A stretch of 64,000 nt of DNA, from the NCBI RefSeq assembly GCF_039654945.1, contig NW_027361825.1, positions 35,402,001 to 35,466,000 of the forward strand. Direction: 5' to 3'. The DNA comes from Dendrobates tinctorius (Eukaryota). The position numbers were made by a program. The first letter of the stretch is position 1. Each line of letters starts with the position of its first letter. Shown piece after piece: positions 32,801-35,800 of the stretch.

Positions 32801-35800
32801 GAACTTGCACTATTGCTGACTGACTAAATACTTTTTTTCCCCACTGTATAAAAGCAAGACAGTGGGACCCACAGCCACACCCAACATGCCACCCAAGAAA
32901 GCAACCAAGCGAAGCAGGAGAAGGCAGGAGACCACTGCAGCACCATCAGCACCACCACCACCCCAAATGGAGCAGCAAATGGAACATGCTGAGGAGGGGA
33001 GGCCAGCAGCAGATGAGAGACGGTAATTATCAAATCCCCCATTCCTCCAAACTAGGGCTATTGAATATCAAGATATTCATTGGCCCTTTGTTTCTCTTTA
33101 TTCAACAGCCGCCCAATAGATGCAGCAGCAGCAATGGCAGCAGCTGGAACACCACCCACAGGCATGGAGTCTGGCCAGCAGGAAGACAGCACATCATCTT
33201 CTGGGAGCCCTCCCTCGCATCGTCAGCGTTTGACGGTAAGTTTTTATTTCCAAAATCCATCATCTCTGTAATATATGTCTATTCATTGCCTTTTATTTCA
33301 AAACAGTATTCACAAGATGAAGAGGAGCTCCCAGAAGAAGAAGGAAGGGGTGGACAGACACCTGGAGTGGGCTCACAATTGGTAAGTTTTTTGCATCAAA
33401 CGCAGAAACACAACATCACACTACACACAACACATAGAAAACAATGTTCTGCAGACCACACACAGCAAACAAATGCCTACATCCAAAGACATAACATTTT
33501 TTGTTTTCTTCTCTAGTCTTCCCAATCTGGTGCTCGGCCAAGAGGTCCTCGCAGTGCCTCCCAGGGTCGTCGGCGACAGCAACGCGGCGGTCACCAGCGT
33601 GTAAGTATAAATATTTTTGCTTTGTTTTTTTGCACTTTTTATTTCATTTCTTTTGTGGAGGCTAATTATGTTATTTTTGTCTTTTTCTTTAACAGCCTTC
33701 ACAGCGTGCTCCCGACTCTGACGGTGAGGATGGAGGACTCGATGTGGACCACCTCATCGATCTCGTCAGAGAAAGGGAGCCGCTCTGGAATATGGCTGAC
33801 CGCCGCCACGCTGACCTTATCGTTACCCGACGACTCTGGGAGGAAATCTGTTCGCTCCTTGTGGGCCGCTGGGAGGACCTCGATGTTCGGGCCCAGATTA
33901 AAGAGCGTAAGTATATACAGTACCGGTTGCTTGATGTAAACCAGTGTTTCCCGAACTCCAGTCCTCGTGGTCCCCACGGATCATGTGTTCAGGATTTCTA
34001 TTTCTATTTACTATGGAAATCCTGAAAACATGACCCCTGGGGACCATGAGGACTGGAGTTTGGGAAACACTGATGTTGTATACTAACCACTCCTTTCTCG
34101 TTTCAGGGAACAGAATTGTGAATCGGTGGCGGTCTGTGAGGGATCGTTTCAAGAAGGAGTTCAATAAAGAGATGCGGGCCCCGAGTGGATCTGGAGGACG
34201 CAGGAGCAAGTACAAGTACGCAGAAGCCCTGTCGTTCCTCCGGGAAACAATGGTCACTAGAAGGTAAATATTACACACCACATGTGAAAAAAAATGTTAG
34301 ATGTAAATTTTTTTTTTCAGCCAGGGCCATACCATGTCAGTATTTTAATTGTTTTTTTTTTCTCTTTATTCCACAGCACGGTGAGCAGCACTCGGGAGCC
34401 TGCACGATTGGACCCTTCTGAGGCGATCCCTGAGGAGACCGGCACCGAGGGACACTTCGACCGCCCCGGTACATCTGCACCTTCCCACACATTCGACCCA
34501 TCTGTCCCATCCACCAGCACAGGAGCATCGTGGCCGCCTACATTACATGAAGCTGCTGGTGAGGAGATCGCTTTCCCTTTACCCCACCCTTCTGCCCCTG
34601 CCACCTCTAGTACACCTGCGGGTACTGGGCGGCAGCGGCAGAGGGGTCAGGAAAAGACTTATGCGCCAGAGTTCTTGCATCTGAATGCATCTTTCCAGAA
34701 CTGTCTAAAAGTCTTGTCAGAGCAAATCACCGCAGGCTATCAGCAGATCAACTCCAGCATTCTGGAGGTGAAGACACTTCTGCAAACCATGCATTCAGAA
34801 GCAAGATCTTCGCCAAACCACACCTTTTTCAGGTCTGTTGTGGAGCGCATGGAAACGCTCTCTCCTGCCCAGCAGATGCATGTAATGCATTCATGCCACG
34901 CTGCTCTCCAGCAAGTTACCTCCCAACCTCCTCCCACCACAGTAGTTCCTCCACCTGCACCCCCTCCAGCCACTTTCCATCCTCCCCCTCCTATTACATA
35001 CCATCCACCTCCCCAGCACCAGCAACCTCCCCAGCACCAGCAACCTCCCCAGCACCAGCAACCTCCCCAGCACCAGCAACCTCCCCAGCACCAGCAACCT
35101 GCCCCGTACCAAACTCCTTCCCCATACAACTTGCCATCAACATCATCTGCTCCTACAGTCCCTGCCCAACCCTCCACTCCACCACCCACCACCTCTTCTG
35201 CTTCCCACATGTCCACCCATTCTGTAGTTTTTTCCACACCTTCACCTCTAAGGCCTCTTTCACACATCAGTTTTTTGCCTTCAGGCGCGATCCGGCTTTT
35301 TTTGGAAAAAACGGATCCGGCAAAATGCAATGCCGGATCCGGTTTTTCCCCATTGACTTGCATTAGCGCCGGATCGTGCCGGATGGCATTGCGTTTCATC
35401 CGTTTTTTGCCGGATCCGGCAACTTGTCTCATTCCGGCGTCTTGAAAAAACGTCTACTGTAACGTTTTTTGTCTCCGGCGAAAAAGCCGGAAGCGCCGGA
35501 TCCGGCGCTTCCAGCTTTTTGCTACAATGAAAGTCTATGGGCGCCGGATCCAGAAAAAGACGGATCCAGCAACCGGACCCGGTTTTTTTAAGTCTGCGCA
35601 TGCTCAGATCCAATTGGCCAGCCTCCAGGAACAGAGACGGATCCAGCAAAAAAACGGATCCGTTTCTACAGTTCTCAAAAATTTATGCTGGATCCGTTTT
35701 TTCTAAAAAAAGCCGGATCATGCCTGACAGCAAAAAACTGATGTGTGAAAGTAGCCTAACTGTTCCTTCCCCACCACGATCCCAGTCCTCTCTCCACACT

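What the first reader, a model, noticed from the sequence alone, without database searches (positions are those of the whole stretch)
32886..35445. Seven-exon Harbinger Myb/MADF gene still open while its partner transposase is dead
Seen: seven GT-AG exons join in phase to 1860 nt (~619 aa). The protein has a basic N-terminus (PPKKATKRSRRR), an acidic/RG-rich linker, a MADF domain, a BESS-like segment and a P/Q-rich tail. The convergent transposase has at least two frameshifts. Known: Harbingers need both a Myb/SANT protein and a DDE nuclease, and such genes were domesticated in vertebrates (HARBI1/NAIF1, MSANTD family). Inference: this copy could still supply a DNA-binding protein for the many CGGATCCG-rich Harbinger MITEs, including several in this window. 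The ORF track misses this gene because its exons are short.
Basis: partly seen in the sequence, partly recalled or inferred. Interest (0 to 1): 0.68.

Follow-up and report, generated by a model that had tools for sequence, protein, structure and literature searches.

The report
Decaying frog Harbinger transposon, both genes damaged
This is one young, decaying copy of a two-gene Harbinger transposon in a poison-frog genome; its DNA-binding (MADF) gene really has seven exons, but it is cut short by a small transposon of its own family, so its open frame is ordinary.

Summary
The seven-exon model is real. All six introns are GT-AG, the exons sum to 1860 nt, and exons 5 and 6 hold the two halves of a MADF domain. 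Annotated paralogues from Dendrobates tinctorius and related frogs reproduce all six junctions. The convergent DDE_Tnp_4 transposase has exactly two frame changes and one genuine 150-nt intron.

"Still open" is misleading, however:
- The last 195 nt of the frame, including its stop at 35443-35445, lie inside a 505-bp MITE of the same family (35252-35756, TSD TAA) inserted in exon 7.
- This displaces the family's conserved 35-residue C-terminus, which is itself frameshifted at about 35804.
- A young Tc1 element sits 38 bp upstream of the ATG.

The gene belongs to a 7.2-kb Harbinger copy (30865-38061, TAA duplications, CCGGATCCGG-rich ends). The copy differs from its nearest sibling at 2 of 187 residues. 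At that age a frame free of stops is expected without selection.

Verdict: a new member of a known kind, with both genes damaged, and low interest. Locus-specific expression and dN/dS could not be tested.

The parts
30865..38061 (+). Whole Harbinger copy (7197 bp including two nested insertions). It is flanked by TAA target-site duplications at 30862-30864 and 38062-38064.
   Evidence: Terminal inverted repeat GGCCTCTTTCACACATCAG / GGCTACTTTCACACATCAG. 50-nt arms, 92% complementary (I8). TAA on both sides read directly.
30865..31239 (+). Left terminal and subterminal region with CCGGATCCGG repeats. It was contiguous with the Myb gene before the Tc1 insertion.
   Evidence: 6 CCGGATCCGG sites at up to 1 mismatch. 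82.5% identical over 354-361 bp to the nested MITE.
31242..32846 (+). Nested Tc1/Sleeping-Beauty-like element with TA duplications at 31240-31241 and 32847-32848. It lies 38 bp upstream of the Myb ATG.
   Evidence: 162-nt TIRs, 99% complementary (I1). The 355-codon frame 31562-32629 carries HTH_SB, HTH_Tnp_Tc3_2 and DDE_3. Junctions read.
32886..33022 (+). Myb/MADF gene exon 1 (ATG, basic PPKKATKRSRRR stretch).
   Evidence: Supported by only one database protein: P0185 of D. tinctorius (E 4.5e-5), with 38 of 54 residues identical and the exon 1/2 junction reproduced.
33109..33235 (+). Exon 2.
   Evidence: P0185 reproduces junctions 1/2 and 2/3. Most family models start only at its end, at M-SSSGSPPS.
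33307..33381 (+). Exon 3 (acidic, EEELPEEEGRGG).
   Evidence: P0185, P0186 and P0123 align across it.
33517..33600 (+). Exon 4 (RG/RQ-rich).
   Evidence: Junctions 3/4 and 4/5 are reproduced by P0186, P0125 and P0139.
33696..33906 (+). Exon 5: N-terminal half of the MADF domain.
   Evidence: PF10545 profile 1-49 of 84, E 4e-4. Junction 5/6 (..IKE-R-NRIV..) is reproduced by P0229, P0186 and P0125.
33942..34072 (.). 131-bp palindromic MITE-like insert inside intron 5 (unrelated family).
   Evidence: 60-nt arms, 90% complementary, 11 nt apart (I6).
34107..34263 (+). Exon 6: C-terminal half of the MADF domain.
   Evidence: PF10545 profile 45-84 of 84, E 2.8e-6, 28 bits against a cut-off of 22. Junction 6/7 is reproduced by P0121, P0186 and P0229.
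34377..35250 (+). Exon 7, native part: conserved blocks, a three-helix BESS-like module and the P/Q-rich tail, up to ..FSTPSPL.
   Evidence: 185 of 187 residues identical to P0121. Helices 129-176, 181-191 and 195-214 in the model of paralogue P0187. BESS E 0.027.
35252..35756 (+). Nested 505-bp MITE of the same family in exon 7, with TAA duplications at 35249-35251 and 35757-35759.
   Evidence: 75-nt TIRs, 88% complementary (I2). TIR matches. 6 CCGGATCCGG-like sites. Paralogues read ..STPSPL-TVPSPP.. without interruption.
35760..35864 (+). Displaced native 3' end of the Myb coding sequence. A net frame change lies at about 35804. The native stop is at 35862-35864, and AATAAA follows at 35877-35882.
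   Evidence: P0188 residues 311-328 match 35750-35803 in one frame, and ..VEVSRSP.SSIST.HYTDL matches up to 35861 in the next frame. Sequence read.
36367..37715 (-). Harbinger transposase pseudogene. ATG at 37715-37713 and stop at 36369-36367. GT-AG intron at 37397-37248. Frame change 1 lies near 37488-37501, with a deletion of about 30 nt (lost residues ..VRMKAE..). Frame change 2 lies at 37103-37107.
   Evidence: DDE_Tnp_4 E 8.5e-28. P0003 maps in frames -3, -1 and -2. P0001 reads PEPTTERWIEI across the second break. 194 of 246 residues identical to P0003 in the catalytic part.
37780..38061 (+). Right subterminal region and TIR.
   Evidence: 5 CCGGATCCGG-like sites. TIR match. 75% identical to the right part of the nested MITE.
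18216..18818 (.). Separate 603-bp MITE of a related subfamily (TIR GGCCTGTTTCACACTTCAG, TTA duplications).
   Evidence: 4 CGGATCCG sites. 68% identical to the nested MITE.

Best explanation
The region is one recently inserted, now decaying copy of an autonomous PIF/Harbinger transposon of dendrobatid frogs. The element spans 30865-38061 with TAA duplications.

Layout, left to right:
- a left end rich in the palindrome CCGGATCCGG;
- a seven-exon gene for a MADF protein;
- a convergent two-exon DDE transposase gene;
- a right end with the same repeats.

How intact family members are inferred to work. The MADF domain binds the subterminal repeats of the element and its MITEs. The helical BESS-like module and the conserved C-terminal tail (..ISTPxYxxL-COOH) make protein contacts, most plausibly with the transposase. 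The accessory protein thereby brings the transposase to the ends, as in zebrafish Harbinger3_DR.

Lesions in this copy (shown):
- The transposase has a frame-changing deletion of about 30 nt and a second frameshift.
- The MADF gene has a same-family MITE inserted in its last exon. The MITE replaces the conserved last 35 residues with 64 MITE-encoded residues and an early stop.
- The displaced tail carries its own frameshift.
- A Tc1 element separates the gene from whatever lies upstream.

The long open frame survives because the copy is young, not because it is maintained (inferred). If transcribed at all, it would give a MADF protein without the family's C-terminal motif.
For: Element identity:
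- DDE_Tnp_4 E 8.5e-28 and Plant_tran E 1e-12.
- MADF halves in exons 5 and 6. The full MADF domain matches 1-84 of 84 at E 2.3e-11 in the 95%-identical paralogue P0186.
- TIRs and TAA duplications.
- All 18 CGGATCCG sites in the window lie in four blocks, against 0.18 expected. No CCGGATCCGG-like site lies outside those blocks.

Multicopy family:
- 60 of 60 named hits to exon 7 come from Dendrobates, Ranitomeya and Anomaloglossus. Twelve are from D. tinctorius, at up to 98% identity.
- 1254 transposase relatives were found among 1368 candidates.

Exon model: junctions are reproduced by P0185 (1/2, 2/3, 3/4), P0186 (3/4 to 6/7), and P0229 and P0121.

Lesions:
- The transposase maps in three frames with one intron.
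- Paralogues P0187, P0188 and P0189 run ..FSTPSPLTVPSPPRSQSSLHTPSVEVS.SPSSSISTPHYTDL. In the window this is split by the MITE and changes frame after SLHTP.
- The C-terminal motif is present in 18 of the 26 aligned family proteins.

Youth:
- 185 of 187 residues match P0121, and the terminal branch is 0.011.
- 3 mismatches in 295 residues against P0001.
- P(no new stop) is 0.73 at 0.5% divergence and 0.53 at 1%.

Mechanism by analogy: passages of PMC9710019 summarising Sinzelle 2008, and passages of PMC9179366.
Against: - I had no RNA data, so transcription of this locus is unknown. NCBI carries many gene models for sibling copies, which hints that the family is transcribed.
- I had no nucleotide sequence of other copies, so dN/dS and private nucleotide divergence could not be measured. 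The age estimate rests on protein identity to siblings.
- The MADF domain, the basic N-terminus and the helical module are intact, so DNA binding by a truncated product is not excluded.
- The role of the C-terminal motif is inferred from conservation alone.
- Binding of MADF to CCGGATCCGG is inferred, not shown.
- The paralogue proteins that support the junctions are automatic predictions. P0185 retains intron 4, and P0186 reads exon 2 in another frame.
Confidence: 0.85

Rival explanations
1. One reading: this copy still supplies a working DNA-binding accessory protein in trans. That protein, together with a transposase from another copy, would mobilise the CGGATCCG-rich MITEs.
For: - The frame is open for 619 codons, with good splice sites.
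- The MADF halves are intact and keep the family's consensus residues.
- A basic N-terminus is present.
- The early stop lies in the last exon, so the exon-junction rule for nonsense-mediated decay would not apply (established knowledge, not tested).
- MADF-only Harbinger derivatives mobilised in trans are documented in Caenorhabditis inopinata (passages of PMC13668399).
Against: - The conserved C-terminal 35 residues are replaced by MITE-encoded sequence.
- The Tc1 insertion lies 38 bp upstream of the ATG.
- Many less damaged siblings exist.
- There is no sign of selection beyond what youth explains.
Confidence: 0.1
2. The truncated product acts as a competitor. It binds the subterminal repeats through MADF but cannot recruit the transposase, so it damps mobilisation of the family, in the manner of truncated P-element repressors.
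For: The MADF domain and helical module are retained while the conserved tail is lost. The idea itself is inference.
Against: Expression is doubtful because of the upstream Tc1. The function of the tail is unknown. This is a single young copy among many.
Confidence: 0.04
3. A domesticated host gene derived from a Harbinger Myb gene (like NAIF1 or the MSANTD genes), kept by selection after the transposase died.
For: The frame is open next to a dead transposase. Such domestications are known in vertebrates (abstract and passages of PMC9392472).
Against: - The gene still sits between intact TIRs with target-site duplications.
- It belongs to a high-copy family with siblings at 91-99% identity in the same genome.
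- Its C-terminus is disrupted.
Confidence: 0.01

Closest known systems
Harbinger3_DR of zebrafish, the reconstructed active vertebrate Harbinger (Sinzelle et al. 2008). I know it only through passages in PMC9710019 and PMC9179366; the paper itself is not held.
   Same: A two-gene element with a DDE transposase and a Myb/SANT/MADF-type accessory protein. That protein binds short subterminal repeats and the transposase. The element makes 3-bp target-site duplications.
   Different: The frog element is a different family. Its accessory gene has seven exons, a BESS-like helical module, a long P/Q tail and a conserved C-terminal motif. Its repeat is the palindrome CCGGATCCGG. This copy is inactive in both genes.
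PIF elements of insects and their MADF gene 2 (PMC9710019, abstract and passages).
   Same: The accessory protein is of the MADF type. It evolves fast outside the domain.
   Different: The insect cases in that paper concern co-domesticated host genes. Here the gene is still inside a transposon copy.
MADF-only Harbinger derivatives of Caenorhabditis inopinata (PMC13668399, passages).
   Same: MADF coding capacity is kept while the transposase is lost. Trans-mobilisation is proposed.
   Different: In C. inopinata the transposase gene is absent and more than 20 near-identical MADF-only copies have amplified. Here the transposase is present but frameshifted, the MADF gene is also damaged, and I have no evidence that this form amplified.
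Drosophila MADF-BESS proteins (recalled; cited in the reference list of PMC11893794).
   Same: An N-terminal MADF domain is followed by a short helical BESS-like motif.
   Different: BESS membership is not established here: all scores are below the Pfam cut-off.
Fish ADF-1L, a Harbinger-derived MADF protein acting on neighbouring genes (PMC11893794, abstract and passages).
   Same: A vertebrate MADF protein of Harbinger origin.
   Different: ADF-1L is a host gene with shown function. This locus is a transposon copy with no expression data.

Membership tests
PIF/Harbinger superfamily element | DDE transposase of the DDE_Tnp_4 / Plant_tran type | tested here: met
   PF13359 E 8.5e-28 and PF04827 E 1e-12 on 36367-37134 (-). 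79% identical to the intact 410-aa P0003 over 246 residues.
PIF/Harbinger superfamily element | Second gene encoding a Myb/SANT/MADF-type DNA-binding protein | tested here: met
   MADF halves in exons 5 and 6. Full domain in paralogues. 19 of 26 aligned family proteins match PF10545.
PIF/Harbinger superfamily element | Terminal inverted repeats and a 3-bp target-site duplication (TWA) | tested here: met
   TIRs (I8, 30). TAA at 30862-30864 and 38062-38064. The nested MITE has TAA and the MITE at 18216-18818 has TTA.
Autonomous (transposition-competent) Harbinger copy | Both genes intact | tested here: not met
   Two frame changes in the transposase. A MITE insertion and a frameshift in the MADF gene.
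MADF domain (PF10545) | Match to the whole profile above the gathering score | tested here: met
   Tested exon by exon only. Exon 6 scores 28 bits (cut-off 22, profile 45-84). Exon 5 scores 21.1 bits, just under (profile 1-49). The halves are complementary. Paralogue P0186 scores 44.3 bits over 1-84 of 84.
BESS motif (PF02944) | Match above the gathering score (21 bits) | tested here: inconclusive
   Window exon 7: E 0.027, 14.7 bits. 12 of 26 family proteins give sub-threshold hits, the best at E 0.0055. The nearest language-model clusters are BESS-bearing (0.90, 0.89, 0.89), which is a lead only. Foldseek against PDB gave 0 matches at E <= 0.001.
Domesticated Harbinger-derived host gene (NAIF1 / MSANTD type) | Single-copy locus without transposon ends, conserved across species under purifying selection | tested here: not met
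   TIRs and duplications are present. The family is multicopy in the same genome. Orthology and selection were not testable with these tools.
Tourist-like MITE (nested element 35252-35756) | Short, non-coding, with the TIRs and subterminal repeats of a Harbinger family and a 3-bp duplication | tested here: met
   505 bp. TIRs 88% (I2). 82.5% identical to the host element's left end and 75% to its right end. TAA duplication.

The most novel reading that the evidence does not exclude
The MITE insertion has made a natural separation-of-function allele. The product would be a MADF protein that still recognises the CCGGATCCGG repeats of its family but lacks the conserved ..ISTPxYxxL-COOH tail. If that tail is the transposase-docking or import motif, the product would occupy MITE ends without recruiting a transposase and would act as a home-grown repressor of the family. 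A MITE would then have converted its own master's helper gene into an inhibitor.
Probability: 0.04. Interest if true: 0.55.

Novelty: new member of a known kind. Interest (0 to 1): 0.2.

Why it matters
The main value is for annotation.
- It defines the full structure of a dendrobatid Harbinger family: TIRs, the palindromic subterminal repeat, a seven-exon MADF gene, a two-exon transposase and derived MITEs.
- Automatic pipelines currently scatter this family over "uncharacterized protein" entries and chimeric host-gene models.
- It also gives a caution: an open frame beside a dead partner gene is not evidence of retention when the copy is about 1% diverged.

The conserved C-terminal motif of the accessory protein is a small, testable lead on how Harbinger helper proteins engage their partners.

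Tried and rejected
- Complex prediction. I wanted to test the transposase family (alignment A2) against the lost 35-residue tail (alignment A1, residues 313-347). There is no result of any kind.
Names and species for the unnamed representatives (P0139, P0142, P0143 and others) stayed unknown.
- Sinzelle 2008 is not held, so I used second-hand passages.
- The AlphaFold model of P0187 has mean pLDDT 58. Only residues 129-214 are confident. Its Foldseek search of PDB gave nothing at E <= 0.001.
- I asked whether P0001, annotated "MIS12 homolog isoform X1", is this locus. Its N-terminal 60 residues find nothing convincing in the window (best E 1.4), so it is another copy.
- Chance ORF or artefact: rejected by the homologue support.
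- Apparent third break in the transposase: rejected as a lesion, because it is an intron.
- dN/dS was not possible. No nucleotide copies of this frog family were reachable.
- Literature searches for this family in poison frogs (listings plus passages of PMC12822217) found only superfamily-level repeat tables. Repbase and Dfam could not be consulted. No supplements were read.
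Full report
**What is at the coordinates.** Their lengths are 137, 127, 75, 84, 211, 157 and 1069 nt, which sum to 1860 nt. The entry phases chain correctly and the single stop is at 35443-35445. All six introns are GT..AG. Four of the six donors read gtaagt, and every acceptor follows a pyrimidine tract. Introns are 71-200 nt long. The joined 619-residue product was never assembled, searched or folded, so whole-protein statistics for this copy do not exist in this report.

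**Domains.** Exon 5 matches the first half of the MADF profile (positions 1-49 of 84, E 4e-4, 21.1 bits). Exon 6 matches the second half (45-84 of 84, E 2.8e-6, 28 bits; cut-off 22). A 95%-identical paralogue protein, P0186, matches the whole profile (1-84 of 84, E 2.3e-11). The BESS-like segment is weaker:
- E 0.027 and 14.7 bits against a cut-off of 21 in the window.
- Sub-threshold hits in 12 of 26 aligned family proteins, the best at E 0.0055.
- BESS-bearing clusters are the nearest language-model neighbours at 0.90, 0.89 and 0.89, which the tool itself rates as a lead only.

An AlphaFold model of paralogue P0187 is confident only for residues 129-214, which form three helices; the rest is disordered. 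It has no PDB match at E <= 0.001. I therefore call the segment BESS-like and do not file it as BESS.

**Relatives and exon support.** The native part of exon 7 (187 residues) finds 64 representatives at E <= 0.001, of which 13 are at <= 1e-30. It also finds 60 named proteins among 830 candidates. All 60 come from Dendrobates tinctorius (12), Ranitomeya imitator, R. variabilis or Anomaloglossus baeobatrachus. The best, P0121 of D. tinctorius, is identical at 185 of 187 positions. The window is therefore from a dendrobatid frog, most likely D. tinctorius or a very close relative. Laying these proteins on the window by tblastn reproduces the junctions:
- P0185 covers 1/2, 2/3 and 3/4.
- P0186 covers 3/4, 4/5, 5/6 and 6/7.
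- P0229 covers 5/6 and 6/7, and P0121 covers 6/7.

Three caveats apply. These are automatic gene models. Exon 1 is backed by a single protein, P0185 (1 hit among 66 candidates, E 4.5e-5; 38 of 54 residues identical). Most family models begin only at the end of exon 2.

**The frame is open only because a MITE lends it a stop.** Close paralogues P0187, P0188 and P0189 end ..FSTPSPLTVPSPPRSQSSLHTPSVEVS(C/R)SPSSSISTPHYTDL. In the window the sequence runs to ..FSTPSPL at 35250. It is then interrupted by a 505-bp element (35252-35756) with 75-nt inverted ends (88% complementary, I2), the family's terminal sequence and a TAA duplication. The native sequence resumes at 35760 with TVPSPPRSQSSLHTP. There the frame changes by a net two bases at about 35804, so VEVSRSPYSSISTTHYTDL and the native stop (35862-35864) lie in the next frame. 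AATAAA follows at 35877-35882. The lost C-terminal motif..ST-x(2-3)-[YFI]-xx-[LI] at the very end, is present in 18 of the 26 aligned family proteins. Those include members only 43-60% identical to the window; the eight without it end in unrelated sequence. It is the one conserved piece in an otherwise fast-changing tail, which suggests a functional short motif. That is an inference.

**The gene's surroundings.** The MADF gene and the transposase lie inside one Harbinger copy, 30865-38061. The ends are GGCCTCTTTCACACATCAG and its near-complement (50-nt arms, 92% complementary, I8). TAA duplications flank both sides. All 18 CGGATCCG sites of the 64-kb window, against 0.18 expected, fall in four blocks:
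- the element's left end;
- the element's right end;
- the nested MITE;
- a second, more distant MITE at 18216-18818 with TTA duplications.

With one mismatch allowed, CCGGATCCGG occurs 6, 5, 6 and 1 times in these blocks and nowhere else. The nested MITE is 82.5% identical to the left end over about 355 bp and 75% identical to the right end. It is thus a deletion derivative of a related master that landed in the helper gene of its own family. A Tc1 element (31242-32846, TA duplications, 162-nt TIRs 99% complementary, open 355-codon transposase frame) sits between the left end and the MADF gene, 38 bp upstream of the ATG. It lies inside a TATATAAAAG-like string. Whatever promoter the left end provides is now 1.6 kb further away. 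The effect on expression is inferred.

**The transposase.** An intact 410-residue relative, P0003, maps onto the window in three pieces:
- residues 1-76 in frame -3;
- residues 83-165 in frame -1, with a 50-codon insert that contains stops;
- residues 165-410 in frame -2.

The insert is a GT-AG intron of 150 nt (37397-37248). The same acceptor is used in the NCBI model P0001. The two real lesions are a deletion of about 30 nt near 37488-37501 (residues ..VRMKAE.. missing) and a frameshift at 37103-37107, where P0001 reads PEPTTERWIEI. The catalytic part is otherwise well kept: 194 of 246 residues match P0003, and there are 3 mismatches in 295 residues against P0001.

**Is the open frame informative?** No.
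- The copy's private divergence is small. It has 2 differences in 187 residues from P0121, a terminal branch of 0.011, and sits in a tight D. tinctorius clade of 91-99% identity.
- Of the 4968 possible single-base changes in the 552 whole native codons, 188 create a stop. The chance of no new stop is therefore 0.73 at 0.5% divergence, 0.53 at 1% and 0.04 at 5%.
- Both genes have suffered indels or insertions: two in the transposase and two in the MADF gene.

There is no asymmetry to explain. dN/dS could not be computed because no nucleotide copies of this frog family were reachable.

**Mechanism.** Shown here: the anatomy, the domains, the repeats and the lesions. Taken from passages in PMC9710019 and PMC9179366, which summarise work on zebrafish Harbinger3_DR: the Myb-like protein binds a short subterminal motif, binds the transposase and is needed for its nuclear localisation. 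Inferred for this family:
- MADF recognises the CCGGATCCGG palindromes.
- The helical module and the C-terminal motif make the protein contacts.
- The basic N-terminus may serve nuclear import.

For this copy, a transcript, if made, would encode a MADF protein with 64 foreign residues in place of the conserved tail. I put the chance that it still works as a helper at about 0.1, and the chance that it acts as a competitor at about 0.04.

**Comparison and novelty.** It is a member of the PIF/Harbinger superfamily. The transposase type, the accessory MADF gene, the TIRs and the 3-bp duplication were all tested and met. It is not an autonomous copy and not a domesticated gene. MADF-type helper genes in Harbinger and PIF elements are already in print (PMC9710019). 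So are MADF-retaining derivatives with lost transposase (PMC13668399) and vertebrate host genes derived from them (PMC9392472, PMC11893794). My searches for this family in poison frogs found only superfamily-level tables. Repbase and Dfam could not be checked. I rate it a new member of a known kind and of low interest (0.2).

**Left open.**
- Locus-specific expression.
- Selection on the copy.
- The copy census at nucleotide level.
- The role of the C-terminal motif. The planned complex prediction never ran because the queue was full.

No supplements were read. The primary Harbinger3_DR paper could not be read.

Noticed in passing
window 31242-32846: A Tc1/Sleeping-Beauty-like element with 162-nt TIRs 99% complementary, TA duplications and an uninterrupted 355-codon frame (HTH_SB, HTH_Tnp_Tc3_2, DDE_3). 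It looks very young and possibly still competent. A second Tc1 fragment lies at 45547-46230.
   Followed up: partly
P0001, P0016, P0029, P0040, P0051, P0082: Several NCBI frog models named after host genes carry this Harbinger transposase's second exon at 65-99% identity. The names are MIS12 homolog isoform X1, UCHL5 isoform X3, GABA-A receptor beta-2 isoform X2, sirtuin-3 isoform X1, ILRUN isoform X1 and PEX7 isoform X1. P0001 starts the transposase part exactly at the intron acceptor (..EA|RFLATG). This points to either exon capture or annotation chimeras.
   Followed up: partly
family alignment A1; window 35805-35864 (out of frame): The accessory proteins share a conserved extreme C-terminus, ..P[ST][VI][ED]V..SPS..ISTPxYxxL-COOH. 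It is present in 18 of the 26 aligned proteins, at the end of an otherwise fast-evolving disordered P/Q/S-rich tail. Its function is unknown.
   Followed up: partly
window 18216-18818: A 603-bp MITE of a related Harbinger subfamily. TIR GGCCTGTTTCACACTTCAG, TTA duplications, ACGGATCCG repeats, and 68% identity to the nested MITE.
   Followed up: yes
window 33942-34072: A 131-bp near-perfect palindrome (60-nt arms, 90% complementary) inside intron 5 of the MADF gene. It is a MITE-like insert of another family and accounts for most of that intron's 200 nt.
   Followed up: no
window 36103-36274: An inverted repeat with 58-nt arms (90% complementary, 56 nt apart) lies between the two convergent genes. 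It could be a small foldback insert or a shared 3' structure.
   Followed up: no
window 35007-35104: An 18-nt tandem repeat of 5.4 copies at 98% match encodes PPQHQQ. It is expanded relative to paralogues P0187 to P0189.
   Followed up: partly
window 1-7076 and 13374-14776: Large satellite arrays: a 48-bp unit x28 (1-1341), a 70-bp unit x11 (1338-2099), a 43-bp unit x94 (3052-7076) and a 36-bp G-rich unit x38 (13374-14776). They explain the long spurious ORFs and the strong GC skew there.
   Followed up: no
window 28719-30744, 52260-54278 (-), 21150-21722 (-): Other mobile-element remains. hAT-like frames lie just left of the Harbinger (weak DUF659 hit). A Ty3/gypsy-type pol carries RVT_1, RT_RNaseH and Integrase_p58_C. 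There is also a DUF5577 frame. No ordinary host gene was recognised among the 20 long frames scanned.
   Followed up: no
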